Shown: positions 4,486 through 41,792, counted from the first letter of the stretch. The stretch: 56,482 bases of DNA from Candidatus Nealsonbacteria bacterium (GCA_016207115.1 JACQQI010000007.1:1-56482); one strand, 5' to 3'. Translations and numbers: made by a program. Notes: a model not told the origin generated them from the sequence alone.

Positions 4486-4530
4486 CTCAAGAATGTAACG
4501 TTTTTCGTCTTTTTGCGTCATTATCTTAGT

Positions 4531-9789: not shown

Positions 9790-9855
9790 TTCTCTAGTTT
9801 CTGGTATCTTCCGAGTTAGTTCTCAAATTTGTCATCCTTGTGGGACAAACCAATC

Positions 9856-9882
9856 GGCGCCCTTTGCGGGGCGCCTTTTGGT
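9856..9882 (+). terminator. Rho-independent terminator
   Basis: ggcgccc-tttgcg-gggcgcc followed by ttttggtt. Confidence 0.7.
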
Positions 9883-9901
9883 TATCCACAGCTTGACACC
9901 T

Positions 9902-10064: not shown

Positions 10065-12548
10065 ATGCGCAATAAAACAAAACAAATACTTTCCGTTAGT
10101 TTGAGTATTCTCGTTTCCACGATGCTGGTGGCGGGTGCGGCCATGGCCGCCACGACCATCGGATCAAACATCGCCACGGCCGGCGACATCACCGTCAACA
10201 CCAATAAATTCGTCGTCACCGGCTCCAACGGCAACCTCAACATCGGCCCCAACGCCTTTACTGTGGCCGGTGCGACCGGTAATACCGCGACTACCGGCAC
10301 TGTTACCGTCACCTCGGCCGGCGCTTCTTCTTTGGCGGTTGGTCTGGCTGGCGCTACCAATCCAGCCTTTGTTATCGACTCTTCTACTGCTTCACAAGCG
10401 GCCGGCTTGAAGGTTACCGGCGCGGCCACGGGTGGAACAGTTGCGGTAGCAGCCATCGATTCTGGTTCCAATACCAACCTAACTATTAATGCCAAAGGCA
10501 CTGGAACAATTGGTATCGGCAGCGTTTCAACCGGAGCGGTGACAATCACTCCAGCTCTTACTCTAGGCTCTACCGTTAACAAAGTTACCATCACCGCTCC
10601 GGCGACTGCGGCGACGCTGACGATTGTTGATGGCGGTTCTTTAATTACGGCGGGTGCGTTTGCGACCACGCTGACATCGACAGCCACAACAAACGTAACA
10701 TTGCCAACCACTGGTACTTTAGCGACGCTGGCCGGTACGGAAACCCTGAGCGGTAAAACTCTGACCGCGCCGAAATTTGCCAACGCCGGCTTTATCGCTG
10801 ACGCCAACGGCAACGAACTGGTCATCTTTACGACCACGGCTTCGGCGGTTAACGAACTGACCTATGCCAATGCCGCGGCCAACGGCAACCCGACCTTCAT
10901 GGTTTCGGGCGGCGACACGGATGCAGGACTTCAGTTTACCTTAAAGGGCGCTGATCCCTTTATCGTGGCCACGAGCACGGCCAACGCCGATACTCTCCAG
11001 TTGCTACCTGCAGCCGGAGGAGCTGGAACTTTCTTTGGCCGTCTCACTTCAGCTGACCTGACCGCAAATCGAACCTGGTCACTTCCAGACACCGATCTGA
11101 CCATCACCGGTTCGACAGGAAGCGGTCTCCTTGTTCAAGCCACATCACCGACTTTAGTTACTCCGGCTTTAGGAACACCATCTGCTCTTGTTCTAACCAA
11201 TGCGACAGGACTTCCAGCCGCTTCAGTATTGGCAGGAAGCTTTGGGGCTGGCGCGTTTGTGATAAGCACTTCTCTACAATCTGCTACCTACGAACTCGGA
11301 CACGCTACCGACACCACTCTCTCAAGAGTAAGCGCCGGTTTAATAGCGGTTGAGGGTGTAAATGTTGTTGATGTGAGTACGGCTCAAACAATGAGCAATA
11401 AGACATTTGTCGCTCCAGTTCTGGGCGTAGCCTCTGCGACCTCTCTGGCCACATCCGCCGCCACCCCATTACTTCTGACAAACGGACAACTGGTTAATAT
11501 CGCTCTGACTTCTCAAACCACGGGCGCAACAACCTTAACCATTCCGGATTTCGCCGGTGTAGTTGATGAGTTCACGTTCAAGACGAAAGCCCAAACGATG
11601 AGCAACAAAACGTTTGTGGCACCGGTTTTGGGCGCAGCAAGCGCCACTTCTTTGACAACAGCGACAATCGATACTGCCGCCGCTATGACAATCGGAGGCA
11701 CGACCGCTACGGACATCGGCGTTGGTCGCACAGGGCAGACGGTTACCTTCCCGGGCAATGTTACCGTTACCGGTACCTTTAGTCCAGCAAGCATCACCTC
11801 ACTAGCCACCTTGAGTCTTACTGACGCTACCACTCCTTCCGTGACTACGGCTTCCGGCAAAACCAACACCGGTTTCTTGCAGGTTAACGGCAAAACTTCC
11901 GGCGCTCTCAAAATAACCGCAGCTGACGCAACGGCGCAGACGGTGACTGTAAGTGCTGCGGCTCAAACAGTTGGTGCGACAACACTAACTATTCCTGATT
12001 TTGCGAGTGTAAGCGATACGTTTGTGTTTACAACTCTTGCACAAACATTAAGTAATAAAACATTCGTTGCTCCAGCTTTAGGAACTCCGGCTTCAGGTGT
12101 GTTGACTAATGTAACAGGACTTCCAACAGCAGGTCTAGTTGATGGTGCTGTAACCTCTGCTAAGCTGTCCGCTGGAGCGAAAACACACACGGTTATAATT
12201 CCGGTGCCCGATCCAGGCGGAGCGGGTACTGATATCACTGCTGGCTATGTTCTTTGGACTCCTTCGGTGGCCGTAACCATCACCAAAGTTTACACAGCGG
12301 CGGAAACGGTTTGGACTGCTGCGGCGCCAGGGAATGATGCTACCGTAGTTGTAACTAACGCGGCCGTCGGTACTGTAGCTACGTTAGCTGTTCAATCAGC
12401 CCTTGGAGCAGGAACCAATACTGACATGGGTGCGATTACCAATGCCTCGGTGGTAGCGGGTACTAACGTCACGATTGCGGTGACTACAAATGGAACGGCT
12501 GATGCTCCAAGACAGAATATTCAGATAGAGTACACCACCGTTAACTAA
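10065..12548 (+). CDS. Secreted phage-tail-fibre-like repeat protein, paralogue 1
   Basis: Signal peptide 'LVSTMLVAGAAMA|ATTIG'. Four copies of '(T/A)QT(M/L)SNKTFVAP(V/A)LG' / 'ETLSGKTLTAPKF' preceded by 'TIPDFA..'. N-terminal ~340 aa align with ORF 14397-16577. Confidence 0.8.
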   Translation: MRNKTKQILSVSLSILVSTMLVAGAAMAATTIGSNIATAGDITVNTNKFVVTGSNGNLNIGPNAFTVAGATGNTATTGTVTVTSAGASSLAVGLAGATNPAFVIDSSTASQAAGLKVTGAATGGTVAVAAIDSGSNTNLTINAKGTGTIGIGSVSTGAVTITPALTLGSTVNKVTITAPATAATLTIVDGGSLITAGAFATTLTSTATTNVTLPTTGTLATLAGTETLSGKTLTAPKFANAGFIADANGNELVIFTTTASAVNELTYANAAANGNPTFMVSGGDTDAGLQFTLKGADPFIVATSTANADTLQLLPAAGGAGTFFGRLTSADLTANRTWSLPDTDLTITGSTGSGLLVQATSPTLVTPALGTPSALVLTNATGLPAASVLAGSFGAGAFVISTSLQSATYELGHATDTTLSRVSAGLIAVEGVNVVDVSTAQTMSNKTFVAPVLGVASATSLATSAATPLLLTNGQLVNIALTSQTTGATTLTIPDFAGVVDEFTFKTKAQTMSNKTFVAPVLGAASATSLTTATIDTAAAMTIGGTTATDIGVGRTGQTVTFPGNVTVTGTFSPASITSLATLSLTDATTPSVTTASGKTNTGFLQVNGKTSGALKITAADATAQTVTVSAAAQTVGATTLTIPDFASVSDTFVFTTLAQTLSNKTFVAPALGTPASGVLTNVTGLPTAGLVDGAVTSAKLSAGAKTHTVIIPVPDPGGAGTDITAGYVLWTPSVAVTITKVYTAAETVWTAAAPGNDATVVVTNAAVGTVATLAVQSALGAGTNTDMGAITNASVVAGTNVTIAVTTNGTADAPRQNIQIEYTTVN

Positions 12549-12577
12549 GCTTAACCAATCCTTAACAATTAACCATC

Positions 12578-13510
12578 ATGCCCATGAAAATTACGTTTAG
12601 GGCGAGATTGCTGACGGCATTGGTCTTGGGATTGGGCATAAGCTTAGCGGCCTCCAGTGCTTGGGCGGCCAATGACCTGACCTTTCCGGAAACCTCATAT
12701 TTTTATTTATCCGGCGTTCCGGAAACTCTAACAGTGCAGGCCGGCGGTGTGGTTGATTCTGTTACTGTCGGTACGACCACGGTGGACGTGACCTTGGGTG
12801 CGGGCGGCAGTTTGACCTTGAAATCGCCCTCCCGCTATGTCATGACCGCCTCGCCAACAGCCGTGGGCACGGGCAGTTGCGAGCCTTCAACCTATAACAT
12901 GGTTTTGGCTTCGGCCACGACCCAAACCGTAACGGTGACGGTCAGTTCCACGACCTGTTCGGCGGGCGGCGGTGGAGGCGGAGGAGGGGCGTTACCCGCT
13001 CCTTCGCCCAGCCCCAGTCCGTCTCCCAGCCCAGCGGCCAGCCCGAGTCCTTCACCGAGCCCGGGCGCTTCACCCAGCCCCTCAGTTAGTCCTTCGCCCA
13101 GTCCTTCAGCCAGCCCGAGTCCTTCGGCTAGTCCTAGTCCGACGCCTTTAGCTTTAGTGCCGATTCCCGCGGTTCCGGCCAATCCGACTACGGCTCAGAT
13201 TCAGGCGGCCATTACCGCCATCCAGAACAACATTGCCGTTCTCTTGGCCGAATTAGCCAAAATTCAGACGCCGACCGTTGGCGCTTTCAACCAAGACCTC
13301 TTCTATGGTCTCTGGAATAACGCCGACGTCAAGCGACTACAGGAGTTTCTGATCGGCAAAGGCTATCTGACCGGGAGCGCCACCGGCAACTACTACACCA
13401 AGACGGTGGAAGCAGTTAAGGCCTACCAGACGGCTAAAAACATTACTCCGATCAATGGTCGATTTGGACCGAAGACCAGAGCGGCCGTCAACCAAGACCT
13501 AGGACTCTAG
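12578..13510 (+). CDS. Secreted wall-anchored protein: signal peptide, ~110-aa beta domain, poly-Gly, PS linker, helix, C-terminal PG_binding_1
   Basis: 'LAASSAWA|AND'. 'GGGGGGGG'. 'IQAAITAIQNNIAVLLAELAKIQ'. 'LFYGLWNNADVKRLQEFLIGKGYL...AVKAYQTAKNITPINGRFGPKTRAA'. Confidence 0.8.
   Translation: MPMKITFRARLLTALVLGLGISLAASSAWAANDLTFPETSYFYLSGVPETLTVQAGGVVDSVTVGTTTVDVTLGAGGSLTLKSPSRYVMTASPTAVGTGSCEPSTYNMVLASATTQTVTVTVSSTTCSAGGGGGGGGALPAPSPSPSPSPSPAASPSPSPSPGASPSPSVSPSPSPSASPSPSASPSPTPLALVPIPAVPANPTTAQIQAAITAIQNNIAVLLAELAKIQTPTVGAFNQDLFYGLWNNADVKRLQEFLIGKGYLTGSATGNYYTKTVEAVKAYQTAKNITPINGRFGPKTRAAVNQDLGL
12995..13146 (+). repeat. Pro/Ser-rich linker (coding)
   Basis: '[51 protein letters not shown]'. 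Confidence 0.85.
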
Positions 13511-13546
13511 ACTTGCTTTCCTTGTTCATCCTTGTGGGACAGCCAA

Positions 13547-13574
13547 GGCCCGCCTCTCCGGCGGGTTTTTGGTT
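13547..13574 (+). terminator. Rho-independent terminator, left copy of a 28-nt duplicated element
   Basis: ggcccgcctctccggcgggtttttggtt. Stem cccgcc/ggcggg plus T-tract. Confidence 0.75.
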
Positions 13575-13579
13575 ATATA

Positions 13580-13607
13580 TTGACTATAACCAGCAATTTG
13601 TTAATAT
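13580..13607 (+). promoter_or_regulatory. Putative promoter of the hicBBA cassette
   Basis: TTGACT, 16 nt spacer, TAATAT. ATG at 13624 lies 16 nt downstream. Confidence 0.45.
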
Positions 13608-13623
13608 TAGAAATAGGCATAAA

Positions 13624-13812
13624 ATGAAATATCTTACCACTCTTCACAAAAGCAAATACGGTTACGATATTCACGTTCCGGCCTTGCCCGGTTGTCACAG
13701 CCAAGGAATAACCAAAAAAGAGGCGCTGGAAAATATTCGCGACGCCATTTTGACCTATTCCGGAGTTATTAAGATGTTAAAACATGAAAAGATTATCCTC
13801 AGCCAAAATTAA
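13624..13812 (+). CDS. HicB-like antitoxin (short, N-terminal domain only), copy 1
   Basis: 'YGYDIHVPALPGCHSQGITKKEALENIRDAILTY'. The ORF-track start at 13513 reads through the terminator, so ATG 13624 is used. Confidence 0.65.
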   Translation: MKYLTTLHKSKYGYDIHVPALPGCHSQGITKKEALENIRDAILTYSGVIKMLKHEKIILSQN

Positions 13813-14032
13813 AAACCGCCAGTTCCCGGTCATTGTCGAGAAAGACGAAGACGGTTTTTATGTTGTCGAATGCCCTTTGTTCAGCGGTTGTTTTACTCAA
13901 GGTAAAACCTTAGACGAAGCCCTCAAGAATATCAGAGAGGCTATAGAGCTTTGTCTGGAAGAAAAAGACAACCTGGAAATTTACCGAACCTATACTCCGA
14001 AGGAATTAAGTCTTCACACCATAACTCTTTAA
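13784..14032 (+). CDS. hicB: HicB-family antitoxin (no DNA-binding tail), copy 2
   Basis: 'FPVIVEKDEDGFYVVECPLFSGCFTQGKTLDEALKNIREAIELCLEE'. Overlaps copy 1 by 29 nt. Confidence 0.75.
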   Translation: MKRLSSAKIKNRQFPVIVEKDEDGFYVVECPLFSGCFTQGKTLDEALKNIREAIELCLEEKDNLEIYRTYTPKELSLHTITL

Positions 14033-14037
14033 TATTT

Positions 14038-14262
14038 GTGCCTAAATTACCCGTTATTACCGGAAGAAAAGCCATAGATATTTTTATAAAACTTGGCTAT
14101 CAGGTCGCCCGACAGCGGGGTAGCCATATCCGTTTGCTGCATTCTGACAAGAGGCCGCTGACAGTGCCGGATCACAAAGTTTTAGGTAAAGGACTTTTGA
14201 GGAAATTAATCAGAGAGGCTGAAATCCCGGTCGAAGAGTTCATAAGGCTTCTGAAGAAGTAA
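14038..14262 (+). CDS. hicA: HicA-family mRNA interferase toxin
   Basis: GTG start at 14038 gives '(M)PKLPVITGRKAIDIFIKLGYQVARQRGSHIRLLHSDKRPLTVPDH'. It lies 5 nt after the hicB stop. Confidence 0.8.
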   Translation: MPKLPVITGRKAIDIFIKLGYQVARQRGSHIRLLHSDKRPLTVPDHKVLGKGLLRKLIREAEIPVEEFIRLLKK

Positions 14263-14286
14263 CTTATACTTCTGTTGGTAACTAAA

Positions 14287-14314
14287 GGCCCGCCCCGCCG
14301 GCGGGTTTTTGGTT
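14287..14314 (+). terminator. Rho-independent terminator, right copy of the 28-nt duplicated element
   Basis: ggcccgccccgccggcgggtttttggtt. 26/28 identical to 13547-13574, with both differences in the loop. Confidence 0.75.
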
Positions 14315-14396
14315 TTCCACAAAGTCACGGTTGCCTTCAGAATAGATTAGAGAGATAATGATTTAACGAGCGCAAAAAAGCGTTAATTTTACAAAA

Positions 14397-16577
14397 ATGC
14401 AAAACAAAAAAACTCTCTCTCTTTTCTTGGCCATTTCCTTGACTTTAATCGCTTCCGGCGTTCTGGCTTCCACGACCATCGGCAACAACATCACCACGGG
14501 TGGAGACTTAACCATTAACTCCACCAAATTCGTGGTCACGGCCGCCTCGGGCAATACTTCTGTGGCCGGCACCCTGGGCGTGACCGGCGCCACGACTTTG
14601 ACTGGCGCCTTAACCGCCAACGGCAGCGTGACCTTAGGTGACGCCGTGGCCGACGTCATCACCGTGACCGGCACGATTGCCGGTACTACCCCTCTGACTT
14701 TTGCCGGGGGAGCGGCCGCCGGCAATATCATTTTCTCCCTGCCCAATCCGGCCTCAGACGTGACTATCACTTTTCCGAGCGCCAGCAGCACCTTAGTGAC
14801 CCTGGCGGGGAGCGAAACCTTGACCAATAAGACTTTGACTTCGCCGGTCATCGGCACCAGCGTGGTTGACACCAATGGCGCGGCCCTGCTCGGCCTGACG
14901 GCGACGGGATCGGCCGTCAATTACTTTGCCTTAGCCAATGCCGCCACCGGCAGCAGCCCGACTATTTCGGCGACGGGCACAGATACTAATATTGGACTTA
15001 ACCTGACGCTCAAGGGCACGGGCGTTTTGACCGTAGCCACCGATACGACCAACGCCGACAGAATCTCGCTTTTGCCTAAGGCGGGCGGCGGCGCGACCTT
15101 TACCGGCACCCTGACCAGCGCCGACCTAACCGGGAATCACACCTGGACGCTTCCTAACGTTGACGGCAATATTATCACTACCGGCGACAGCGGCACCGTG
15201 ACCAGCACGATGCTGGCCGGCAGCATTGATTTAACCAGCAAAGTGACCGGTGTCCTACCCGTGGCCAATGGCGGCACGGGTTTGGCCTATTTTACCGTGG
15301 CCGGTCCCAGCGCCACGCGAACCTATACTTTTCCCGATGCCGACAGCACCGTTGTGACCCTGGCGGCCAGCCAAACTCTGGCGGCGAAGACCCTGACGAC
15401 TCCAACTATTGCTGACTTTACCAACGCCGGCCACAACCACGCCAATGCCGCGGGCGGGGGACAATTAACTGACGCCGTCCTGAGCTCAGCCGTAACCGTG
15501 GCCAAGGGCGGCACGGGATTGACGGCGGGCACTTCCGGCGGCCTCCTTTACTTTTCCTCAACCAGCGCTTTAGCTTCTTCAGCTCTTCTCGCCGCTAATC
15601 AAATTATTTTGGGTGGGGGAGCTGGTACAACTCCGGCCACTCTCGGATCATTGGGCACGAGCGTCCAAGTTCTGCACGGCAATGCGGCCGGGGCGCCCAC
15701 CTGGTCGGCCGTATCTTTAACGGCGGACGTGACCGGTGTCCTACCTGTGGCCAATGGCGGAACCGGAGCGAGCTCTTTAACTGACTTAATTGCTTTGGGA
15801 ACTCAGACCACGGGCAATTACGTCGCCAGTTTAACCGCGGGTAATGGCCTAAGCGTGGGTGCGGCCGCCGAAGGCGGCACTCCCAGCGTGGCTTTGGGTT
15901 TATTGACGGCTGACTGGGCCCAGACCGCCGCTTACGACCTGAAATTAGGCAACGGCACCTTTAATAACACTTCAGCCGGCGCCGACCTTTACGTCACCGG
16001 CAACATCGAGGCCGACGGCACCTTTTACGGCAATCTAACCGGTAATGTTACGGGTAGCGTCACGGGCAATGCCGATACGGCCACGGCCTTGGCCGCCAAC
16101 CCAACGGACTGCGGTGCCAATCAGTTTGCCACGACCATCGCCGCTTCGGGCAACCTGACGTGCGCGGCTTTGACCGATGCGGACGTGCCGAATGACCTGA
16201 CCGTCTCCGGAGCGACGATTAACAACTCGATCATCGGCGGCACCACGGCCGTAGCCGGCACCTTTACCACTTTGACGGCCAAGGGCGCGACCAACTACGC
16301 TCTGGCGGCCACGGCAGATAACCTAGCCTACACCCTGGCGGTTCCGATCACCGCCCTGACCGACGGCGCTTTTGTCATCTTTAAAATGCCCAACGCCAAT
16401 TCCGGCGGTGCGGCCACTCTGAACGTCAACAGCCTGGGCGCCAAGAAAATGCTCAAGGGATCGGATAACGCCACCCAGATCAACAGCAACGACCTGATCG
16501 CCAACGGTTCTTACTTGGCGACTTACAATACCAGCCTGGACGGAGCGGCCGGCGCCTGGGTTATCCTGAACAAATAG
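14397..16577 (+). CDS. Secreted phage-tail-fibre-like repeat protein, paralogue 2
   Basis: 'LIASGVLA|STTIGNNITTGGDLTINSTKFVVT'. 'GSETLTNKTLTSPVIG'. 'VTGVLPVANGGTG' occurs twice. C-terminal 'ATLNVNSLGAKKMLKG...LIANGSYLATYNTSLDGAAGAWVILN'. Confidence 0.8.
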   Translation: MQNKKTLSLFLAISLTLIASGVLASTTIGNNITTGGDLTINSTKFVVTAASGNTSVAGTLGVTGATTLTGALTANGSVTLGDAVADVITVTGTIAGTTPLTFAGGAAAGNIIFSLPNPASDVTITFPSASSTLVTLAGSETLTNKTLTSPVIGTSVVDTNGAALLGLTATGSAVNYFALANAATGSSPTISATGTDTNIGLNLTLKGTGVLTVATDTTNADRISLLPKAGGGATFTGTLTSADLTGNHTWTLPNVDGNIITTGDSGTVTSTMLAGSIDLTSKVTGVLPVANGGTGLAYFTVAGPSATRTYTFPDADSTVVTLAASQTLAAKTLTTPTIADFTNAGHNHANAAGGGQLTDAVLSSAVTVAKGGTGLTAGTSGGLLYFSSTSALASSALLAANQIILGGGAGTTPATLGSLGTSVQVLHGNAAGAPTWSAVSLTADVTGVLPVANGGTGASSLTDLIALGTQTTGNYVASLTAGNGLSVGAAAEGGTPSVALGLLTADWAQTAAYDLKLGNGTFNNTSAGADLYVTGNIEADGTFYGNLTGNVTGSVTGNADTATALAANPTDCGANQFATTIAASGNLTCAALTDADVPNDLTVSGATINNSIIGGTTAVAGTFTTLTAKGATNYALAATADNLAYTLAVPITALTDGAFVIFKMPNANSGGAATLNVNSLGAKKMLKGSDNATQINSNDLIANGSYLATYNTSLDGAAGAWVILNK

Positions 16578-16585
16578 TTTTACCC

Positions 16586-16613
16586 TTGACCCGGTTTCTG
16601 GGCGGTTTAGAAT
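16586..16613 (+). promoter_or_regulatory. Putative sigma-70-type promoter for the giant gene
   Basis: TTGACC, 16 nt spacer, TAGAAT, starting 9 nt after the stop of the preceding gene. Confidence 0.45.
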
Positions 16614-16713
16614 GAAGTAATATGGCCAGTTCAAAAACAATGATCCGTGTTTTCGTTGATTATAGCGGGCGGAACGCCCGATATATCGTAATCGCTATAA
16701 ATAATTAATTTTG

Positions 16714-16741
16714 ACCGTGCTTGATTTGAGCGCGGTTTTTT
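16714..16741 (+). promoter_or_regulatory. Terminator-like hairpin plus T-tract, 7 nt upstream of the giant gene's ATG (possible attenuator)
   Basis: accgtgc-(9 nt)-gcgcggt followed by ttttt. One G-U pair in the stem. Confidence 0.4.
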
Positions 16742-16747
16742 AGACTC

Positions 16748-19700: not shown

Positions 19701-22700
19701 CGGTGGACTCAACCGGCCCGACGGTCATGATGGCCAATGGCGACGATTACAAGCTGGCCATTACTTTCTCCGAACCAATGCAGGCCGCCAAAGCCACCGA
19801 TACCGTCAACTGGTCCGCCTCGGTTTTGAATCCGGGCAATTACGTTCTCTACAGCAATAGTTCGCCGCCGCCTTTTGTCGAGAATACTAATATGGCCAAG
19901 TACTTTGCCAACAACACTTTGGCCACGGCCACCGACACGGCCCACGGCGGACCACTGACCTTTAAGTACGACGCGGCCTACAACACGGTCATCATCGAAG
20001 GGCTTAAATTGCTCGATTCGTTACTGACGATAAAGGGCGGGTTTAATATCTGGGTCAAGAACGTCAAAGACATTTCCGGCAACGTCATCCAGGACACGAC
20101 CAAGCCGGCCAACGTCAATGATTTTGGCTTAAACACGGCCGGCGGTCCGGTCATGGATGCCAAATCAACTTTTGGCAATATCGGTCCCGGCGGCGGGGGG
20201 ATGTCGGGTCCGCCGCCAACCTCGGCTTTATCCGGCGGCGCCATGAACGTGACGGCTTTTGGCGGCAAAGACCCGGCCATGATGGGCTTTAAACCCGTCA
20301 ACGTCTTTCCTATGAACATGCTCGGCGGCCAGGAATCGATGTACATGATCGACCTGCCCTTGACTACGGCTATTCCGGCTTCGGGCCAGATCATTCTGAC
20401 TTTCCCGGTGGGTTTTGACGTGACCAACGCTGCCGACGGCGACCCCGGGCAAAAATGGGCTCACAAAGATATCAACGGGCCGGGTACGGGCACGGTGGTA
20501 CTCTCGGCGGTTTCGGCCAACGCCACGGCCCGAACCGTGACCATCACTCTGGGTAGCGTGGCGACTCAGGCCAACGATTTCCTGCACTTGGAAATTGACC
20601 GCATCAAAAACACGACCAAGTCTTCGGACGGAGACCTGGCCAGCGGCATCACCATGGGAGCGGGCTATCAGGTGGATATTTACACCAAGACGCCGAGCTC
20701 GGGCGGTTCCCGAACGCTGGAAACTTTGAAGTCCATGCCCTTCTTTATCAAGTCGGCGGGCGCCTCATCTCTGACCGGCAGCATTACCTTTAAAGACTCT
20801 GCCGGTGCCAACGCGGCCGTGACGTTGACCAATCTGCCGGTTTATCTGATGTCGCCGGCCACCGGCCCGCTGAAAACACTGGTCAGTTTTTCCAATTCGG
20901 CCACCGGAAATTATACCTTCTCCAATTTGCCCACCGGAACCTACATGCTGGGTTCAGAAACCATGCAGTCGGTTTCCGGGACGGATTATTACATCGATTT
21001 ACAGCCCATGCCCCAATCGATCAATGTGGCTTCGGGCAGCAATACCAAGAACTTGGTTTTCCAGGCGCAGTCGGCCGCTAACAAACCCAACCTGACCGTC
21101 TACGTCACCGGCACCTTTACCAATGAGAGCGTGGACATTTTTGCCGGCGGCCCGGGCAACTTCGCCGTTAAAACCATCGCCCTCAATGGAACCTTTACCA
21201 ACGCCTCGCCTTCAATCCAAACTCTTTACTTGCCTTCCACCGGTACTTGGATGGTCGGAATGGGCCCGGCCATGCCTAGGGGGCCGCAGCAATCCGGGCC
21301 TCCGCCCATGCCCAGTTGGATGCCCCCGCGGCCCGTTGAAGTTAACGTTTCGGGCACGGGGCCCGGCTGGACCTGGAAAGACCATGACGGCGCCGCCACT
21401 CTCGACACTTCCTCAACCGACGGCAAAATCACTCTCGGCGTGGCGACGGCCAATAAAACCATCAACGGCCACGTCTATAACCCAGCCGGAAGCACGGGCA
21501 TCCAGAATGCCGAAGTCTTTGCCTTTTCTCCCCTGGGCGGAATGGGATCTCACGCCCAATCGGGCGCCGATGGCTCTTTCACTCTGAAGGTAATGGACGG
21601 CAGTTATCAGGTCGGCGCTTTTGTTCCGGGCATGATGCCCTCCCAAGAAATTCCCGTGGAGGTGAAAACCGTCAGCTCGGTCACGACGATCTACGCCAAC
21701 GGCACGGCCACTACCGATCTCATCATCAAAATCCAGAATCCCGAATCGATGTACACGATTTCGGGCAAAGTGACCGACGGCACCAACGTCATCAAGGATG
21801 CTTCGGTCTATGCCCGCCGAACCGATGCGCCCGGCAACGTCGGCGGCAAAACCGATTCGATGGGTAAATACATTCTCTACGTTCAGGCCGGAACTTGGGC
21901 CGTCGGGGCTTTCCTGCCTCAGTACGGCAACTTAACCGAACAGAGCGTGATGATTAGTACGGCTTCCCAGGCCAACATTGATTTTGCTCCGGCCACGGGC
22001 ACGACCTTTAGGACCGTCAAAGACCGGGTCTATAAAGACGTGGACAGCAGCGGAACTTATACCGGTGGCGACACTCTCTTAGCCAATGTTCACGTGGACT
22101 TTGACCGGACGGGTTATCACAACGGTTCCCTGAGCGATCAGACCGGCCAATACACCATCCTCGTGCCCGACGGTACTTACACGGTGACGGCCTGGTCGCC
22201 CGACATCGGCAAGATTCCGCCGCAGACCGTCGTGGTTTCGGGCAACATCAATTTGACGGGCGAAGCGGATTTACCCGTCTCCGACACCCGGACCGTAACC
22301 GTCAACTTTATTGATTCTTTGGGAGCGCCGGTAACCTTGAGCGAAGTCTATGTCCAGATGGATAAACTCGGCGCCAAAGACGTCAGCAACGAAACGAGCC
22401 GAGAGAACGTTTCTTCGCTGACTCTGCCGGTTCCGGCCGGCACGGGCTACGAATACGCCCTGGAGCTGGCCATTCCCGGCGTAGCCGATCAAACTTTGAC
22501 CCTGGCTGGCGGCGGCAGCACGACGGTGACCGGTTCGGATGTCAACTCCGATAGCGCCATTGACATGTATAAGGTGGTGGTGGACGGTAACGAGACGATT
22601 AATGTCACCGTACCGACGCTTTACCAGGTTTCGGGCCAGGCTCTGGATAATTCCGGCAATCCCTTGACCGATACGGTCGTCAATATCAAAAAGGCCGGGT

Positions 22701-24484
22701 CGAACGACGTGGCCCTGGCGGTCAAAACTGATTCGTCGGGAAACTATTCGGTCAATCTGCCGGCTTCGGGAGCGGGCACGCCTTACCTTTTCCAGATCGA
22801 CAAGGGCGGCTACGTCGACACGGGCTTGTCCGTGGTCGTGGATGGCACGGAAACCCAGAATTTGGACGCCAACAAGGCCAGTTTGACAATTTCCGGCCAG
22901 ATAAAAGTCGGCTCCGCGGGCGTGGAGGGCGCTAAGGTTTTCGGCAAAGAGCTGGGCGGAGGATTCACTTCGACCGAGACCGATGCCCAGGGAAATTACA
23001 GCCTACCCGTGACCGCCGGCAACTGGAAAGTCTCGGCCGCTTCGGATGGCTATCAGGAAAAAGAGTATCAAAATGCTTCCAGCCAGGATATCGTCGTTTC
23101 GGTGACCGCGAGCGTACCCGGGATCGACGTGACCCTGGCGACCCAGAAAACCGGATTGGCCACGGTCAATAATTCTGATTTAAATCCTTCGGCCGGCGCC
23201 ACCTTCGAACATTCGTCGGCGGGACTGGAATTAATCGCGCCGCAGAATGCCATTGCTTCCTCTCAAGCAACCTATCAGATGGAGGATTATGAAGTTGCCA
23301 ACGTCACTTCTTCACCCACGGCTAAAACTATCGGCGGGGAAGCCGTCCAGCTCTCGGCCTATGAACCCTCCGGTTCTTCGATGGTGCCCAAGTCGAGCTT
23401 TTCTTCCGATGTGACCATCGAAAAGAAATACACCAAAGCGGAACTGGTCGCCGAGGGCATCGATACTTTTGCCGAAGCGGAAAACGTCACCATGTCGTAT
23501 TTTGACAACTCGGCTTCCAACTGGGAACCGGTCCTGACCAATATCACCTATTTGGACAGCGGCGACCAGCCGGTCATTCCGACCAACACTCTGGCCAATG
23601 TGGCGGCGGTGGTCTATGCCGGCGTCTCCGACCACCTGACCGTCTATTCGCCGACCAATCAGAATCCGGATGGTTTAGCTCCCTCGGCACCCACCAGCGC
23701 CAGCGGGACCGCCACTTCGGGCACGAATACAATTTCTTGGACGGCGCCGACAACCAATACCGACGCGAGCAGTCTGACCGACCTCTTGGGCTATGAAGTC
23801 TATCGTTCGACTGCGGCCTCGGGCACCTACGTTCAGATCAACGCGACGGACGTGACCTCAACGAGTTATGCCGACAACTCGGTCAGCTCGGGCACGACCT
23901 ACTACTACAAGGTAACGGCGGCCGACACCGGCGGCATTGAATCCAATCTGTCCACGGCTAGCTCGGGAGTCTTGGCCTACGTCGGTGGCGGGGGTGGCGG
24001 CGGCATTTCCTTCTGGCCGACTCCGTCCCCGAGCCCTTCACCGAGTCCGTCGCCTTCGCCCAGTCCCTCCGCCTCACCCAGTCCTTCGGCCAGTCCTTCT
24101 CCGACAACGCCCACGGGCTTAGTGTCGATTCCGACGCTTTCGGCCAATCCGACCCGGTCCGAGATTCAGGCCGCCATCACCGCCATCGTCCAGAACATCG
24201 CCTATTTGCAAGCCGAATTGACCAAACTCCGGGGTGGAGCCGGTTCGATCGCGGCTTTTGTCCAAGATCTTCATTACGGTCTGTTAGAAGATCCTCAGGT
24301 CAAAAAGCTGCAGGGACTTTTGGTCAGCCGGGGCTACCTGGGCACGGGTTTGGACACGGGAAATTACCTGTCCAAGACCGTTCAAGCCGTCAAAGCCTAT
24401 CAGCAAGCCAAAGGCATTACTCCGGTCAACGGCCGCTTTGGGCCCCAGACCCGGCAGGCCATGAACACGGACCTCGGCTTGTAG
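16748..24484 (+). CDS. Giant (2578 aa) S-layer/adhesin-like wall-anchored protein: signal peptide, LTD, Big_5/SbsA-like Ig domains, CarboxypepD_reg-like domains, FN3, PS linker, helix, C-terminal PG_binding_1
   Basis: 'VVISEVKLSGATETDEFIEIYNKTNSTVTISGWKV' (LTD). 'ISFSKDLDASTINSSNITL' (Big_5-like). 'VKGKVMSGASGIDNANVTLRGAG...FTFSNIPAGMFRLEANAPGY' (CarboxypepD_reg-like). 'LLGYEVYRSTAASGTYVQIN...YYYKVTAADTGG' (FN3). C-terminal 'LHYGLLEDPQVKKLQGLLVSRGYL...AVKAYQQAKGITPVNGRFGPQTRQA'. Poly-Gly hinges separate the modules. Confidence 0.85.
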   Translation: MSKQKGGRFFKRTVTVLTSLTTILWSVGLPVLPVALAATPHIMMVEYVNPTTLQVRFDQLMNESTIVTGSFTLTTGATGDNSSITSVTNATVDSKTVATVVASGAKISPGAGDFVKVASGAETNSPKNGTAEANADNGNIGIVAQPGQVVISEVKLSGATETDEFIEIYNKTNSTVTISGWKVTRLAQDGTPTDLVTFADPTTLAAGKFRLIAPTGTANVDNAYTPSGNGLDTNNTVILYRTAGPSFRSEDLVGCGTAVIKEGTAAVCPVANTSGERKASPTSTAVTLAAAGSEVAWGNSYDTNNNNFDFVGQSGAGVNPQSSASPAEVPGGGGGGYQNQPPNINHMPVGQVISGQDFMIMAQMADPETPAQGLTANLIYSTDGGTTWLTLVGQYMTQDFKFIIPSAATGSGTGVAFKYYLKATDADSNSRCMWNMGFGVCGTADATAKAGAWTVNSTSSAGMTNTVKGKVMSGASGIDNANVTLRGAGLNFNTTSATDGVAGTFTFSNIPAGMFRLEANAPGYSMGWIDGALSKLSGAAYGDNTINLTAGGGGGQGGDTTSPRVIWSAPMDGMNGAPTKINIPASGQFEAPIMIGFSKDMDATTITTDNIKIYPVTASGLGTALLGLSVAYQTQNSSVTLTDRGSRVIGSSDFGPDRKALVYSATPLTANSQYVIDLSASVKDAAGNVLQGNKSGGGHSISFTTSGDFSSFNTGQMTTGFNTFMTSGGGGGQFTPPYVTGSGPNNGAKNVPTNAKIVVNFSQPMDSTGINATSSTGTYVKLYDTNFNNTGSGQYVTVESIALDTTTKQMATLTVGGAGLAASHSNYAIRVLGGAKSATGVSMAMPDQANTVMYQADFSTGSTTDVGAPTVLGTTLQTYTAVTPCTGANVCVSGVPTNVGTMEISFSKDLDASTINSSNITLTNGTTSVSTTVSYDGLSRSLKIAPTTVLYTVTTYTLTVGTGVKAMNGTALAANYVVSFTTNSTVDSTGPTVMMANGDDYKLAITFSEPMQAAKATDTVNWSASVLNPGNYVLYSNSSPPPFVENTNMAKYFANNTLATATDTAHGGPLTFKYDAAYNTVIIEGLKLLDSLLTIKGGFNIWVKNVKDISGNVIQDTTKPANVNDFGLNTAGGPVMDAKSTFGNIGPGGGGMSGPPPTSALSGGAMNVTAFGGKDPAMMGFKPVNVFPMNMLGGQESMYMIDLPLTTAIPASGQIILTFPVGFDVTNAADGDPGQKWAHKDINGPGTGTVVLSAVSANATARTVTITLGSVATQANDFLHLEIDRIKNTTKSSDGDLASGITMGAGYQVDIYTKTPSSGGSRTLETLKSMPFFIKSAGASSLTGSITFKDSAGANAAVTLTNLPVYLMSPATGPLKTLVSFSNSATGNYTFSNLPTGTYMLGSETMQSVSGTDYYIDLQPMPQSINVASGSNTKNLVFQAQSAANKPNLTVYVTGTFTNESVDIFAGGPGNFAVKTIALNGTFTNASPSIQTLYLPSTGTWMVGMGPAMPRGPQQSGPPPMPSWMPPRPVEVNVSGTGPGWTWKDHDGAATLDTSSTDGKITLGVATANKTINGHVYNPAGSTGIQNAEVFAFSPLGGMGSHAQSGADGSFTLKVMDGSYQVGAFVPGMMPSQEIPVEVKTVSSVTTIYANGTATTDLIIKIQNPESMYTISGKVTDGTNVIKDASVYARRTDAPGNVGGKTDSMGKYILYVQAGTWAVGAFLPQYGNLTEQSVMISTASQANIDFAPATGTTFRTVKDRVYKDVDSSGTYTGGDTLLANVHVDFDRTGYHNGSLSDQTGQYTILVPDGTYTVTAWSPDIGKIPPQTVVVSGNINLTGEADLPVSDTRTVTVNFIDSLGAPVTLSEVYVQMDKLGAKDVSNETSRENVSSLTLPVPAGTGYEYALELAIPGVADQTLTLAGGGSTTVTGSDVNSDSAIDMYKVVVDGNETINVTVPTLYQVSGQALDNSGNPLTDTVVNIKKAGSNDVALAVKTDSSGNYSVNLPASGAGTPYLFQIDKGGYVDTGLSVVVDGTETQNLDANKASLTISGQIKVGSAGVEGAKVFGKELGGGFTSTETDAQGNYSLPVTAGNWKVSAASDGYQEKEYQNASSQDIVVSVTASVPGIDVTLATQKTGLATVNNSDLNPSAGATFEHSSAGLELIAPQNAIASSQATYQMEDYEVANVTSSPTAKTIGGEAVQLSAYEPSGSSMVPKSSFSSDVTIEKKYTKAELVAEGIDTFAEAENVTMSYFDNSASNWEPVLTNITYLDSGDQPVIPTNTLANVAAVVYAGVSDHLTVYSPTNQNPDGLAPSAPTSASGTATSGTNTISWTAPTTNTDASSLTDLLGYEVYRSTAASGTYVQINATDVTSTSYADNSVSSGTTYYYKVTAADTGGIESNLSTASSGVLAYVGGGGGGGISFWPTPSPSPSPSPSPSPSPSASPSPSASPSPTTPTGLVSIPTLSANPTRSEIQAAITAIVQNIAYLQAELTKLRGGAGSIAAFVQDLHYGLLEDPQVKKLQGLLVSRGYLGTGLDTGNYLSKTVQAVKAYQQAKGITPVNGRFGPQTRQAMNTDLGL
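24017..24106 (+). repeat. Pro/Ser-rich linker (coding)
   Basis: '[30 protein letters not shown]'. Confidence 0.85.
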
Positions 24485-24628: not shown

Positions 24629-24655
24629 AGAATTAAATTGATATTCTTTTCCGCG

Positions 24656-41780: not shown

Positions 41781-41792
41781 GATCGTAAAGAT

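What the first reader, a model, noticed from the sequence alone, without database searches (positions are those of the whole stretch)
10065..24484. Two 'fibre gene + wall-anchored gene' pairs: tail-fibre-like paralogues with conserved N-termini and unrelated C-terminal tips
ORFs 10065-12548 and 14397-16577 share three things. They have A-rich leaders (..acaaaaaATGcgcaataaaac / ..acaaaaATGcaaaacaaaaaaac). They have similar signal peptides. They align over roughly the first 260-340 residues, for example 'TTIG(S/N)NI(A/T)T(A/G)GD(I/L)T(V/I)N(T/S).KFVVT' and 'NAD(T/R)(L/I).LLP.AGG..TF.G.LTSADLT.N(R/H)TW(S/T)LP'. Both contain repeated 'T(L/I/F)P...(T)L(V/A)TLAG.ETL(T/S)(N/G)KTLT.P' units, and paralogue 2 has 'GVLPVANGGTG' twice. 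I recall these motifs from phage tail-fibre and host-recognition proteins. After the shared shaft the C-termini are unrelated. Paralogue 2 ends in 'ATLNVNSLGAKKMLKG..LIANGSYLATYN....GAWVILN', which resembles fibre tip domains. Paralogue 1 ends in a different beta-rich domain. Each fibre gene is followed directly by a protein carrying the PG anchor cassette (12578-13510 and 16748-24484). There are no capsid, terminase, baseplate or integrase genes. These therefore appear to be cellular, signal-peptide-exported fibres with exchangeable tips, possibly docked on the adjacent anchored proteins.
Basis: partly seen in the sequence, partly recalled or inferred. Interest (0 to 1): 0.7.

Follow-up and report, generated by a model that had tools for sequence, protein, structure and literature searches.

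The report
Secreted phage-fibre-like proteins in Patescibacteria
Two neighbouring genes of an ultra-small (Patescibacteria-type) bacterium encode exported fibre proteins built from the same modules as phage tail fibres; they sit in a conserved cell-envelope gene cluster, each type next to a dedicated partner gene, and their ends are swapped between relatives and even with phages, which makes them good candidates for surface attachment fibres.

Summary
ORFs 10065-12548 (PAR1, 827 aa) and 14397-16577 (PAR2, 726 aa) are paralogues. They share a signal peptide plus N-terminal head (45% identity) and a ~145-aa module (51%, E 2e-31). Their C-termini are unrelated.

Both proteins are mosaics of modules found in thousands of metagenomic proteins, many on phage contigs. 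PAR2's C-terminal domain matches a bead of the solved, trimeric Pseudomonas phage Pa193 gp47 tail fibre (profile E 1.7e-10).

The genes are not prophage remnants. The window is chromosomal and has no phage hallmark genes. The order (ECF sigma, DUF5667, large PG-binding protein, fibre, small secreted partner, giant Big_5 protein) recurs, wholly or in part, in at least seven other loci, most labelled Patescibacteria.

Among 12 such fibres the shafts are related in 66/66 pairs and the tips in only 5/66. Two genes with 96%-identical 5' ends carry different tips. PAR1's tip recurs at 69-85% identity in small signal-peptide proteins, one on a phage contig and one on an integrase-bearing element.

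Best reading: Sec-exported, probably trimeric, surface fibres held by a conserved N-terminus and displaying exchangeable ends. Trimer formation, docking on the partner and adhesion are inferred, not shown. This is a new variant of a known kind, of moderate-to-high interest.

The parts
3982..4485 (+). ECF-type sigma factor at the head of the envelope cluster (context)
   Evidence: Pfam Sigma70_r2/r4/ECF. An orthologue (E 4e-41) occupies the same position upstream of the fibre gene in the Uhrbacteria locus L009.
4513..5271 (+). DUF5667 protein, an anti-sigma-like neighbour (context)
   Evidence: Pfam DUF5667. A homologue follows the sigma factor in L009.
5683..9789 (+). 1368-aa secreted protein with an N-terminal PG_binding_1 domain and repetitive beta-rich body; possible S-layer-like wall protein
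   Evidence: Pfam PG_binding_1, E 2.5e-9. Orthologues lie upstream of the fibre gene in L006 (E 7e-20), L009 and L014.
9856..9875 (+). Intrinsic terminator hairpin separating the 1368-aa gene from the PAR1 unit
   Evidence: Terminator scan: 8-bp stem with 7 GC pairs, followed by a T-run. Sequence read.
10065..12548 (+). PAR1, an 827-aa secreted modular fibre protein
   Evidence: ORF. 2243 homologues, all mosaic. No Pfam or PDB sequence hit for the whole protein.
10065..10148 (+). PAR1 signal peptide (aa 1-28, cleavage AMA|A inferred)
   Evidence: Read from the translation. Aligns with the PAR2 N-terminus.
10149..10244 (+). PAR1 conserved mature N-terminal 'head' (aa 29-60, ATTIGSNIATAGDITVNTNKFVVT..)
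   Evidence: 45% identical to PAR2. The same head motif follows the signal peptide in P0010, P0122, P0128, P0132 and P0182 and, read from the sequences, in the L009, L014 and L016 fibres.
10299..10565 (+). PAR1 extra module (aa 79-167), absent from PAR2
   Evidence: Copies 75-89% identical occur in at least 12 otherwise different proteins.
10683..11135 (+). PAR1 module A (aa 207-357), the block shared with PAR2
   Evidence: BLASTP 51% identity, E 2e-31. Profile A2 hit, E 1.9e-56.
11136..11402 (+). PAR1 stalk module 'TPALGTPSALVLTNATGLP...SRVSAGLIAVEGVNVV' (aa 358-446)
   Evidence: 78-86% identical copies in P0128, P0160 and P0180. The same region matches tail-region DNA of uncultured phages.
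12132..12548 (+). PAR1 C-terminal tip domain (aa 690-827)
   Evidence: Seven homologues at 69-85% identity, all small proteins. Six of them begin with a signal-peptide-like N-terminus or are fragments. One lies on a phage contig and one on an integrase-bearing element. The same tip, at 72-74% identity, ends the fibre P0122. No PDB or cultured-phage match.
12578..13510 (+). Partner protein (310 aa): signal peptide, ~100-aa two-cysteine beta domain, poly-Gly and PS-rich linker, C-terminal PG_binding_1
   Evidence: Pfam PG_binding_1, E 4e-12. An HMM built from the N-domains of five partners in other genomes hits only this ORF among 402 window ORFs, E 1e-12. It starts 29 nt after PAR1.
13625..14262 (+). 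HicB-like / HicB-like / HicA toxin-antitoxin cassette between the two fibre units
   Evidence: Pfam HicA_toxin, E 5.5e-15, for 13951-14262. The upstream small ORFs were read and called HicB-like by eye only; this was not tested. Flanked by terminator hairpins.
14397..16577 (+). PAR2, a 726-aa secreted modular fibre protein
   Evidence: ORF. 1760 homologues. An identical copy is on a second, 2.4-kb public contig.
14397..14468 (+). PAR2 signal peptide (aa 1-24, cleavage VLA|S inferred)
   Evidence: Read from the translation. Aligns with PAR1.
14754..15200 (+). PAR2 module A (aa 120-268)
   Evidence: Alignment A2 of 34 sequences. The AF2 model has pLDDT 79.8. Foldseek found no PDB match and only uncharacterised phage proteins in BFVD.
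15234..15791 (+). PAR2 module B (aa 280-465) with the 'G(V/T)LPVANGGTG ... VLHGNAAGAPTF' repeats
   Evidence: This is the region hit by most of the 1760 homologues. Alignment A4. No PDB match.
16242..16577 (+). PAR2 C-terminal bead domain (aa 616-726)
   Evidence: 1026 representative clusters at E<=1e-3. Profile A6 hits PDB 9b45 chain 2, Pa193 gp47 tail fibre, residues 241-325, E 1.7e-10. phrog_28171, E 4.8e-7. Matches annotated tail-fibre genes of phage phiOH2 and Microcystis phage Mae-JY35.
16748..24484 (+). Giant 2578-aa secreted protein (LTD, Big_5 x3, CarboxypepD_reg x6, C-terminal PG_binding_1), a conserved cluster member downstream of the fibre/partner genes
   Evidence: Pfam. Orthologue in L006 downstream of fibre and partner, E 8e-60 over ~1000 aa. 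Fragments occupy the same position in L249.
24638..26338 (+). 566-aa secreted protein with C-terminal PG_binding_1 (end of the surface-protein island)
   Evidence: Pfam PG_binding_1, E 3.8e-10.

Best explanation
PAR1 and PAR2 are two paralogous, Sec-exported fibrous surface proteins of a Patescibacteria-type bacterium. They are assembled from the same interchangeable beta-rich modules that make up phage tail fibres. They are stable chromosomal members of a conserved cell-envelope gene cluster and are not phage genes.

The cluster reads: ECF sigma, DUF5667, large PG-binding wall protein, fibre, small secreted partner, giant Big_5/CarboxypepD_reg wall protein.

Proposed mechanism:
1. After signal-peptide cleavage the chains trimerise into a beads-and-shaft fibre.
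2. The conserved mature N-terminal head holds the fibre on the envelope. The most likely holder is the two-cysteine N-domain of the co-transcribed partner. The partner is itself tethered to the wall by a long Gly/Pro-Ser linker and, in about half of the cases, a PG_binding_1 domain.
3. The variable C-terminal domain points outward and supplies binding specificity, for a host cell, a surface or a polymer.
4. New specificities arise by recombination of modules with other fibre genes and with phages and mobile elements.

Shown here:
- paralogy of the two genes;
- signal peptides, read from the sequence;
- the chromosomal context;
- conserved synteny and the conserved fibre-partner pairing;
- module sharing with phage proteins, including one solved trimeric tail fibre;
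- mosaicism and tip replacement among close relatives.

Inferred, not shown:
- trimer formation;
- the orientation of the fibre (N-terminus in, C-terminus out);
- docking on the partner;
- an adhesive function.
For: Paralogy: E 2e-31 and E 1e-10.

Chromosomal context without phage hallmarks.

Synteny:
- L006 has the PG-binding protein, the fibre P0182, a partner with PG_binding_1 and the giant protein, next to RecA, FtsK and EF-P.
- L009 (Uhrbacteria) has ECF sigma (E 4e-41), DUF5667, the wall protein, the fibre and the partner.
- L014, L016, L024, L247, L248 and L249 also carry a fibre followed by a partner.
- The partner-family HMM hits only window ORF 12578-13510, E 1e-12.
- PAR1 and its partner are 29 nt apart and bracketed by terminator hairpins.

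Relation to phage fibres:
- The best-covering homologues lie on 42-52 kb phage-like contigs.
- Module A has at least 246 relatives in IMG/VR and 221 in genomes.
- Homologues carry Peptidase_S74, K1-lyase_C, beta-helix, collagen and Gly_rich_2 ends.
- The PAR2 C-domain matches residues 241-325 of Pa193 gp47, E 1.7e-10. This lies in the N-terminal 340 residues, which the authors describe as trimeric 'beads on a string' (PMC11456595). By residue range it corresponds to the third bead.
- The same domain matches annotated tail-fibre genes.

Modularity:
- Shaft, head and tip are related in 66/66, 18/66 and 5/66 pairs respectively, with at least 6 tip classes among 12 fibres.
- P0122 and P0132 share 95.8% nucleotide identity over the first 311 nt, then are mosaic and have different tips.
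- PAR1 modules have 75-92% identical copies in unrelated architectures.
- The PAR1 tip is 84% identical in protein and 75% in DNA to a gene on a phage contig of 41% GC.
Against: - No experiment or multimer model shows a trimer, surface location or binding.
- The monomer AF2 model of PAR2 was unusable, with pLDDT 50.7.
- Neither fibre carries a recognisable wall anchor of its own. Retention on the cell is therefore an assumption; the fibres could be released.
- PAR2's C-terminal domain is, in phage proteins, typically N-proximal or tandemly repeated. It may be structural rather than a receptor-binding tip.
- PAR2 is followed by the giant protein, not by a partner-family gene. The pairing argument therefore holds strictly only for PAR1.
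- Three of the partners examined (L009, L014, L016) have no PG_binding_1 hit.
- Most module-A genes in Patescibacteria-labelled loci lack signal peptides by a crude hydrophobicity test (7 of 34 positive). The secreted type is a minority of the superfamily.
'Patescibacteria' rests on the names attached to homologues and syntenic loci. One syntenic locus (L014) is labelled Gammaproteobacteria.
Confidence: 0.6

Rival explanations
1. The fibres are structural envelope elements, such as spacers or spikes of an S-layer-like coat formed with the neighbouring PG-binding giants. They would have no specific ligand, and the module shuffling would reflect antigenic or phage-evasion variation rather than adhesion specificity.
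For: - They are embedded among very large PG_binding_1 wall proteins, with an ECF sigma gene at the head of the cluster.
- PAR2's last domain is a shaft-bead type that also occurs in long tandem arrays.
- No lectin, CBM or other known binding domain was detected.
Against: - The pattern of a conserved N-terminus with a replaced C-terminus is what is seen in receptor-binding fibres.
- The tips are under strong protein-level conservation across very different genomes: 84% amino-acid against 75% nucleotide identity. That argues for a specific function of the tip rather than mere variability.
Confidence: 0.17
2. The fibres act in phage defence or phage interplay. They would be host-encoded mimics of phage receptor-binding fibres that mask or occupy the cell's own phage receptors, or decoys that bind incoming phage. 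The phage-encoded small secreted proteins with the same tip would be the counterpart, for example in superinfection exclusion.
For: - PAR1's tip is shared at 69-85% identity with small proteins that mostly begin with a signal-peptide-like N-terminus. One lies on a phage contig between terminase and portal, and one on an integrase/Prim-Pol element.
- Toxin-antitoxin cassettes sit next to the fibre genes here (HicA) and in L249 (ParE).
Against: - No PADLOC or defence-gene context was examined, and none was found among the Pfam hits.
- The conserved position inside a housekeeping-like envelope cluster in divergent genomes is unlike typical, patchy defence islands.
- Nothing shows that these phages infect this lineage. 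The phage contig has 41% GC against 52% for the window.
Confidence: 0.12
3. The genes are leftovers or cargo of a degraded prophage or tailocin: true tail-fibre genes stranded in the chromosome with no cellular role.
For: The modules are abundant in phage contigs, and the closest full-length architectures (P0003, P0134) are on phage-like contigs.
Against: - No other phage gene is present in 56 kb.
- Both genes are intact and carry signal peptides.
- The fibre+partner pair and its flanking wall-protein genes are syntenic in at least seven other loci with housekeeping neighbours such as RecA, FtsK and EF-P.
- The N-terminal head is specific to this secreted subgroup.
Confidence: 0.05

Closest known systems
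Pseudomonas phage Pa193 (Pbunavirus) tail fibre gp47, PDB 9B45
   Same: The last ~110 residues of PAR2 are homologous to gp47 residues 241-325 (profile E 1.7e-10). [quoted passage not shown] Both proteins are long, Thr/Ala/Gly-rich and modular.
   Different: - gp47 is a virion protein without a signal peptide. It is attached by its N-terminus to baseplate protein gp46 and is encoded in a baseplate operon.
- PAR2 has a signal peptide and lies in a cell-envelope cluster.
- PAR2 carries the bead at its very C-terminus.
- Only this one domain is detectably shared.
Mosaic tail fibres / tailspikes of uncultured Caudoviricetes (proteins ending in Peptidase_S74, K1-lyase_C, pectate-lyase beta-helix, Gly_rich_2)
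   Same: They share module A, module B (the GGTG repeats) and the 'TPALGTPASGVLTN' stalk with PAR1 and PAR2, often at 50-90% identity over 70-180 residues. They evolve in the same mosaic way, by module exchange.
   Different: - They are encoded with capsid, portal and tail genes.
- Most have no signal peptide.
- They end in chaperone or enzymatic domains that PAR1 and PAR2 lack.
Wall-associated fibrous adhesins of monoderm bacteria, and trimeric autotransporter adhesins
   Same: Functional analogy only. All are exported, elongated, repetitive surface proteins with a conserved anchoring end and a variable binding end. One homologue was even labelled 'trimeric autotransporter adhesin' by its source (P0167).
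   Different: No YadA anchor, LPXTG, SLH or PG-binding domain is present in the fibres themselves. Anchoring would have to be indirect. The building blocks are phage-fibre modules, not adhesin repeats.
Large surface proteins and type IV pili proposed as host-attachment factors of Patescibacteria (e.g. PMC13059738, PMC12206443)
   Same: The same biological setting and the same suggested role: recognising and binding a host cell. The neighbouring giant protein here has the typical Ig-like/CarboxypepD_reg architecture.
   Different: In the searches made here, those papers describe fibronectin-, integrin- and concanavalin-type giants and pili. None found mentions phage-tail-fibre-like secreted proteins or a fibre+partner gene pair.

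Membership tests
Phage tail fibre proteins (structural/evolutionary class) | Contains domains homologous to experimentally established tail-fibre domains | tested here: met
   The PAR2 C-domain matches Pa193 gp47 (PDB 9b45_2), E 1.7e-10. tblastn hits annotated tail-fibre genes of phage phiOH2 and Mae-JY35. For PAR1 there are only short matches in tail regions of phages.
Phage tail fibre proteins (structural/evolutionary class) | Mosaic architecture of modules shared with proteins encoded in phage genomes | tested here: met
   P0003 and P0134 lie on phage-like contigs. There are at least 246 IMG/VR loci with module A. The BFVD Foldseek hits are all viral proteins, mostly from uncultured phages.
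Phage tail fibre proteins (functional membership: virion component) | Encoded within a phage/prophage tail or baseplate module | tested here: not met
   No phage hallmark gene is present in the 56-kb window. Orthologues lie in cellular envelope clusters.
Phage tail fibre proteins (functional membership: virion component) | Cytoplasmic assembly, i.e. no secretion signal | tested here: not met
   Both proteins begin with a typical Sec-type signal peptide. This was judged from the sequence; no dedicated predictor was available.
Phage tail fibre proteins (structural/evolutionary class) | Homotrimeric elongated fibre | not testable with these tools
   Only monomer AF2 was available. The whole-PAR2 model had pLDDT 50.7. 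Trimer formation is inferred from homology to a bead of the trimeric gp47 fibre.
Conserved Patescibacteria 'fibre + partner' envelope cluster (defined here) | Signal peptide followed by the head motif A-x-(L/T)-T-(I/F/L/V)...G-x-(L/F/I) | tested here: met
   The regex finds it in PAR1, PAR2, P0010, P0122, P0128, P0132 and P0182. It is also read in the L009, L014 and L016 fibres.
Conserved Patescibacteria 'fibre + partner' envelope cluster (defined here) | Fibre gene immediately followed by a secreted protein with the two-Cys N-domain and poly-Gly linker | tested here: met
   Met for PAR1 (HMM E 1e-12) and for L006, L009, L014, L016, L024 and L247. Not met for PAR2, whose downstream gene is the giant protein.
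Conserved Patescibacteria 'fibre + partner' envelope cluster (defined here) | Flanked by orthologues of the N-terminal-PG_binding wall protein and the giant Big_5 protein | tested here: met
   L006: E 7e-20 and E 8e-60. L009 and L014 have the upstream wall protein. L249 shows the same order.
PG_binding_1 wall-anchored proteins | PF01471 domain in the protein itself | tested here: not met
   There is no Pfam hit in PAR1 or PAR2. The domain is present in the neighbours 12578-13510, 16748-24484, 5683-9789 and 24638-26338.
Trimeric autotransporter adhesins | C-terminal YadA-type membrane anchor and head/stalk repeats | tested here: not met
   No Pfam or NCBIfam match of any kind.
DGR variable proteins (Mtd-like) | Nearby reverse transcriptase and template/variable repeat pair; C-type-lectin-fold tip | tested here: not met
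   No RT gene is in the window; there is only an RNase H/RVT_3 protein at 45575-46033. Some distant homologues carry Mtd_N. A repeat search for TR/VR was not run.
Tailocins / phage-tail-like particles | Sheath, tube and baseplate genes next to the fibre genes | tested here: not met
   None found among the window's ORFs.

The most novel reading that the evidence does not exclude
Patescibacteria (ultra-small episymbiotic bacteria) have domesticated phage-tail-fibre modules into Sec-exported trimeric surface fibres. A dedicated wall-tethered partner protein holds the fibres on the envelope, and their swappable distal domains are the cells' host-recognition devices. Tips are traded with phages and mobile elements, so that the host range of the symbiont evolves by the same cassette exchange that governs phage host range. 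The small signal-peptide 'mini-fibres' with the same tip, found on a phage contig and on an integrase-bearing element, would be mobile spare tips or competitors for the same ligand.
Probability: 0.25. Interest if true: 0.8.

Novelty: new variant of a known kind. Interest (0 to 1): 0.58.

Why it matters
How Patescibacteria recognise and hold on to their host cells is largely unknown. The candidates so far are type IV pili and giant Ig-like proteins.

A conserved, chromosomally encoded family of exported fibres with these properties would give a concrete and testable candidate for a specificity determinant:
- they are built from phage receptor-binding-fibre modules;
- they have a dedicated partner gene;
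- their ends are demonstrably exchanged between relatives and with phages.

It would also be an example of gene flow in both directions between phage fibres and the cell envelope. In addition, the work defines several abundant fibre modules (module A, module B and the PAR1 tip) that have no solved structure and no Pfam model in the copy searched. These could improve annotation of phage receptor-binding proteins in metagenomes.

If the fibres turn out to be merely structural, the finding is still a useful description of a conserved envelope locus in an uncultured lineage.

Tried and rejected
1. Whole-protein searches of PAR1 and PAR2 against Pfam, NCBIfam and PDB sequences gave nothing useful. 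PHROGs gave only one weak hit, phrog_692 at E 5.5e-4.
2. The AF2 monomer model of full-length PAR2 with a 70-sequence MAFFT alignment reached only pLDDT 50.7. It was not used for fold search.
3. The module A profile against PDB gave only chance matches to designed Symfoil trefoils. Its good AF2 model (pLDDT 79.8) has no PDB neighbour.
4. Module B, the PAR1 tip and the partner N-domain profiles against PDB gave no significant hits.
5. tblastn of the full proteins against 50,697 GenBank phages found nothing for PAR2 and four short hits for PAR1. The low-complexity filter probably hides much.
6. The metagenome scan with the N-terminal alignment A3 was driven by module A patterns. It returned marine and lake phage-like contigs rather than close relatives, so strain-level tip comparison of the window's own genes was not possible.
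7. jackhmmer on the hit set drifted between modules A and B. I fell back to single-pass phmmer.
8. BLASTP without composition correction aligned the two proteins end to end. I disregarded this as a composition artefact.
9. Protein comparison of P0122 against P0132 returned only trivial HSPs, so I redid the comparison locally.
10. A search for a shared k-mer (a possible ECF promoter) upstream of the cluster genes found none.
11. The cluster look-up to name the organism showed no relatives at 90% identity and no names.
12. Literature searches found no description of such proteins in Patescibacteria.
13. The DGR idea, prompted by Mtd_N in some homologues, was dropped because there is no RT in the window.

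Full report
**What is there**

The window carries an all-plus-strand island of secreted proteins (50-26338) next to ordinary housekeeping genes. These include MurB, SecA, SecDF, PGK, MurJ, LepA, RNase P RNA and tRNA-Gly.

- Both start with an A-rich leader.
- Both have a Sec-type signal peptide with inferred cleavage sites AMA|ATTIG and VLA|STTIG.
- Composition-corrected BLASTP gives two significant shared blocks. Residues 1-60 align at 45% identity (E 1e-10). PAR1 211-353 aligns with PAR2 124-267 at 51% identity (E 2e-31).
- PAR1 has about 87 additional residues between these blocks.
- The 'TLxNKT(L/F)TxP' unit occurs four and two times. 'GVLPVANGGTG' occurs twice in PAR2.
- The C-terminal 110-140 residues are unrelated.
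- PAR1 is followed after 29 nt by a 310-aa protein with PG_binding_1. PAR2 is followed after 170 nt by a 2578-aa protein ending in PG_binding_1.
- Profile searches show that the fibre modules occur in these two ORFs only.

Terminator hairpins follow the upstream 1368-aa gene (9856-9875), the 310-aa gene and the HicA gene (read). PAR1 and the 310-aa gene therefore look like a two-gene transcription unit. A HicB/HicA cassette (13625-14262) separates it from the PAR2 unit.

**The proteins are mosaics of modules shared with phage tail fibres**

Neither whole protein matches Pfam, NCBIfam or PDB sequences. Even so, each has about 2000 homologues in the 5.8-billion-protein collection. Mapping the hits shows that they cover only parts of the query, and different parts in different proteins.

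Several stretches of PAR1 recur at 75-92% identity in proteins with otherwise different architectures. These stretches are aa 79-167, 303-462, 447-523 and 625-691.

I defined these units:
- module A (PAR2 120-268, alignment A2);
- module B (the GGTG repeat region, PAR2 280-465, alignment A4);
- a 'TPALGTPASGVLTN' stalk;
- the two C-terminal domains.

Evidence that these modules are shared with phages:
- Some homologues end in Peptidase_S74, K1-lyase_C, a pectate-lyase beta-helix, collagen or Gly_rich_2.
- The homologues that cover most of the queries lie on 42-52 kb contigs. P0003 covers 68% of PAR2 and P0134 covers 60% of PAR1. Their contigs carry Phage_stabilise, Endonuclease_7, Muramidase and a giant polyvalent protein, so they are probably phages.
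- Module A has at least 246 relatives in IMG/VR viral contigs and 221 in species-representative genomes.
- Its AF2 model (pLDDT 79.8) has no neighbour in the PDB. In BFVD it matches only viral proteins, most of them uncharacterised proteins of uncultured phages (best E 1.7e-6).
- In cultured phages the matches are few and short, but they fall in tail regions. One is Pelagibacter phage HTVC202P gp47, directly after the annotated 'putative tail protein' gp46.

**A link to a solved structure**

A full HMMER scan with PAR2's last 127 residues found 1026 representative clusters.
- The ~95-aa domain usually sits at about residues 50-145 of 250-550-aa proteins, or in tandem arrays of up to 15 copies.
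- Some of these proteins are clear tail fibres: Peptidase_S74, Gly_rich_2, BppL_N and many PHROG tail-fibre families.
- A profile of the domain (A6) hits PDB 9b45 chain 2, the tail fibre gp47 of Pseudomonas phage Pa193, at residues 241-325 with E 1.7e-10.
[quoted passage not shown] By residue range, the matched stretch corresponds to the third bead.
- tblastn also finds the domain in annotated tail-fibre genes of phage phiOH2 and Microcystis phage Mae-JY35.

This is the best evidence that PAR2 is a trimeric fibre.

**The genes are cellular, and their neighbourhood is conserved**

No phage hallmark or DGR reverse transcriptase is present in 56 kb. More importantly, the arrangement recurs elsewhere.
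- L006 (NCBI assembly GCA_000380845.1) lies next to EF-P, RecA and FtsK. It shows this order: an N-terminal-PG_binding wall protein (orthologue of 5683-9789, E 7e-20); a 623-aa fibre with signal peptide (P0182); a 375-aa secreted protein ending in PG_binding_1; and a giant Big_5 protein (orthologue of 16748-24484, E 8e-60).
- L009 (labelled Candidatus Uhrbacteria) shows ECF sigma (E 4e-41 to 3982-4485), DUF5667, the wall protein, the fibre and a small secreted protein.
- L014, L016, L024, L247, L248 and the fragmented L249 show the fibre followed by the same kind of small protein.

The small 'partner' proteins share three features: a signal peptide; a ~100-aa beta-rich domain with two conserved cysteines; and a poly-Gly linker. 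An HMM of five such domains hits only ORF 12578-13510 among all 402 window ORFs, with E 1e-12. Their C-terminal halves differ. PG_binding_1 is found here and in L006 and L024; L247's partner has a similar C-terminal sequence (read by eye); L009, L014 and L016 have other domains.

The conserved pair is therefore fibre + partner. The giant protein after PAR2 is a separate conserved cluster member. In the window the fibre gene seems to have been duplicated, with a toxin-antitoxin cassette in between.

**Conserved N-termini, mosaic shafts, replaced tips**

The secreted subgroup shares a mature N-terminal head of the form A-x-(L/T)-T-...-G-x-L. Among 12 such fibres the three regions behave differently:

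| Region | Pairs with significant similarity |
|---|---|
| Middle (shaft) | 66 of 66 |
| First 110 residues (head) | 18 of 66 |
| Last 110 residues (tip) | 5 of 66 |

- This gives at least six tip classes.
- Tip sharing cuts across head groups. PAR1's tip is 74% identical to that of P0122. But P0122's head is 96% identical to that of P0132, which ends in a different domain.
- At the DNA level, P0122 and P0132 come from two wells of the same groundwater site. They are 95.8% identical over the first 311 nt and then become mosaic.
- PAR2's closest N-terminal relative, P0010, is a 447-aa fibre with yet another end.

**PAR1's tip is shared with mobile genetic elements**

A search with PAR1 residues 690-827 found seven proteins at 69-85% identity, all of only 161-233 aa. 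Four begin with a signal-peptide-like N-terminus, followed by a short stalk and the tip. The other two examined are fragments or start differently.
- P0239 lies on a 43.7-kb phage contig between the large terminase and the portal gene.
- P0245 lies beside an integrase and a Prim-Pol gene.
- P0244 is a fragment of a fibre in another syntenic envelope cluster.
- The phage copy is 84% identical in protein but only 75% in DNA. Its contig has 41% GC against 52% for the window. The exchange is therefore not recent, and the protein sequence is under strong constraint.

**Interpretation**

What is shown: the paralogy, export signals, chromosomal location, conserved synteny, fibre-partner pairing, module sharing with phage fibres (one of them solved and trimeric), and mosaicism with tip replacement.

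What I infer: the proteins form trimeric fibres on the cell surface. The conserved N-terminal head keeps them on the envelope, most plausibly through the partner's N-domain, which is tethered to the wall by its linker and PG-binding domain. The variable C-terminal domain faces outward and binds something. Given the episymbiotic lifestyle of cultivated Patescibacteria (PMC12206443, PMC13059738), a host-cell ligand is the attractive candidate.

Rival readings:
- a purely structural coat element;
- a role in phage defence or receptor masking, suggested by the phage-borne mini-fibres and the adjacent toxin-antitoxin cassettes;
- prophage debris, which the synteny, the signal peptides and the absence of phage genes largely exclude.

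**Limits**

- No multimer prediction, surface-localisation data or binding data were available.
The cluster look-up found no relatives at 90% identity. 'Patescibacteria' rests on the names attached to homologues and to the syntenic loci, and one syntenic locus (L014) is labelled Gammaproteobacteria.
- By a crude hydrophobicity test, only 7 of 34 module-A genes in Patescibacteria-labelled loci have signal peptides. The secreted, cluster-embedded type is therefore a distinct minority of a very large, mostly phage-borne superfamily.
- I found no paper describing it.

**Verdict**

PAR2's end is a shaft-bead domain, and only PAR1 has the conserved partner directly downstream. This is a new variant of a known kind: phage-tail-fibre architecture recruited as an exported component of a conserved cell-envelope cluster. 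Interest is moderate to high, because it offers a concrete, testable candidate for surface specificity in an uncultured lineage.

Noticed in passing
L163:10001-10615 (phage contig, ENA ERZ27247793) and L165:7073-7774: Small proteins of 204-233 aa consist of a signal-peptide-like N-terminus, a short 'TPALGTPxSGVLTN' stalk and the PAR1 tip at 70-84% identity. One lies between the terminase and portal genes of a ~44-kb phage contig. The other lies next to an integrase and a Prim-Pol gene. An apparently secreted 'mini-fibre' encoded by a phage is unusual, and its role is unknown.
   Followed up: partly
window 13625-14262; L249:10159-10443: A HicB-like/HicB-like/HicA cassette sits between the two fibre units. 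In another syntenic cluster a ParE toxin gene sits right after the partner gene. Toxin-antitoxin genes seem to recur at this spot.
   Followed up: no
window ~9826-9885, ~13521-13575, ~14283-14320: The GC-rich terminator hairpins after three genes are followed by the same 'TTTTTGGTT(A/T)T' tail. Two of them are preceded by the same 'tcatccttgtgggaca' motif. This may be a small repeated terminator-associated element.
   Followed up: no
window 28342-30561: A deoxyhypusine-synthase homologue is interrupted by an intein (Hint, Intein_splicing and HNH domains). It lies beside S-adenosylmethionine decarboxylase and an arginase/agmatinase-family gene (a polyamine/hypusine-type cluster).
   Followed up: no
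L010:1110-15608, L068:1677-16265, L035:90-16535, L012:3801-15758: Module A also occurs inside giant proteins of 4000-5500 aa, in Patescibacteria-labelled and other genomes. At least one of them (L068) has a signal peptide. The fibre modules are therefore also used in very large proteins.
   Followed up: no
proteins P0034, P0049, P0059, P0061, P0064, P0068, P0073 and others: There is a uniform family of ~578-aa proteins with a signal peptide, the motif 'QGSLSEQVLRLLTRDNxWTG', module B repeats and the precomputed Pfam tag PF26209. That tag is absent from the Pfam copy searched, so its name is unknown. This may be another secreted use of the same repeats in other bacteria.
   Followed up: no
P0048: A 930-aa homologue with a hydrophobic N-terminus and module B is recorded from a Candidatus Aenigmarchaeota (DPANN archaeon) contig of 786 kb. 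The modules may therefore also occur in ultra-small archaea.
   Followed up: no
L014 and L012 (records titled 'uncultured Gammaproteobacteria bacterium'): L014 carries the wall protein, secreted fibre and partner arrangement otherwise seen in Patescibacteria-labelled loci, at 65% GC. Either the cluster is wider than Patescibacteria, or these bins are mislabelled or contaminated.
   Followed up: no
window 40437-43427: A TrwB/VirD4-type coupling-protein homologue (41793-43427, with a treble-clef zinc finger) follows a 447-aa ORF without any Pfam match. This may be a remnant of a DNA-transfer system.
   Followed up: no
many Saccharibacteria-labelled loci, e.g. L028, L031, L037, L041, L046, L047, L058: Module-A proteins without a signal peptide share a conserved N-terminus, 'MA(E/D)QRLP.V..DDG.WG.ILNQ(Y/F)L.KEHY'. 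This may be the virion-attachment end of tail fibres of Saccharibacteria (pro)phages.
   Followed up: no
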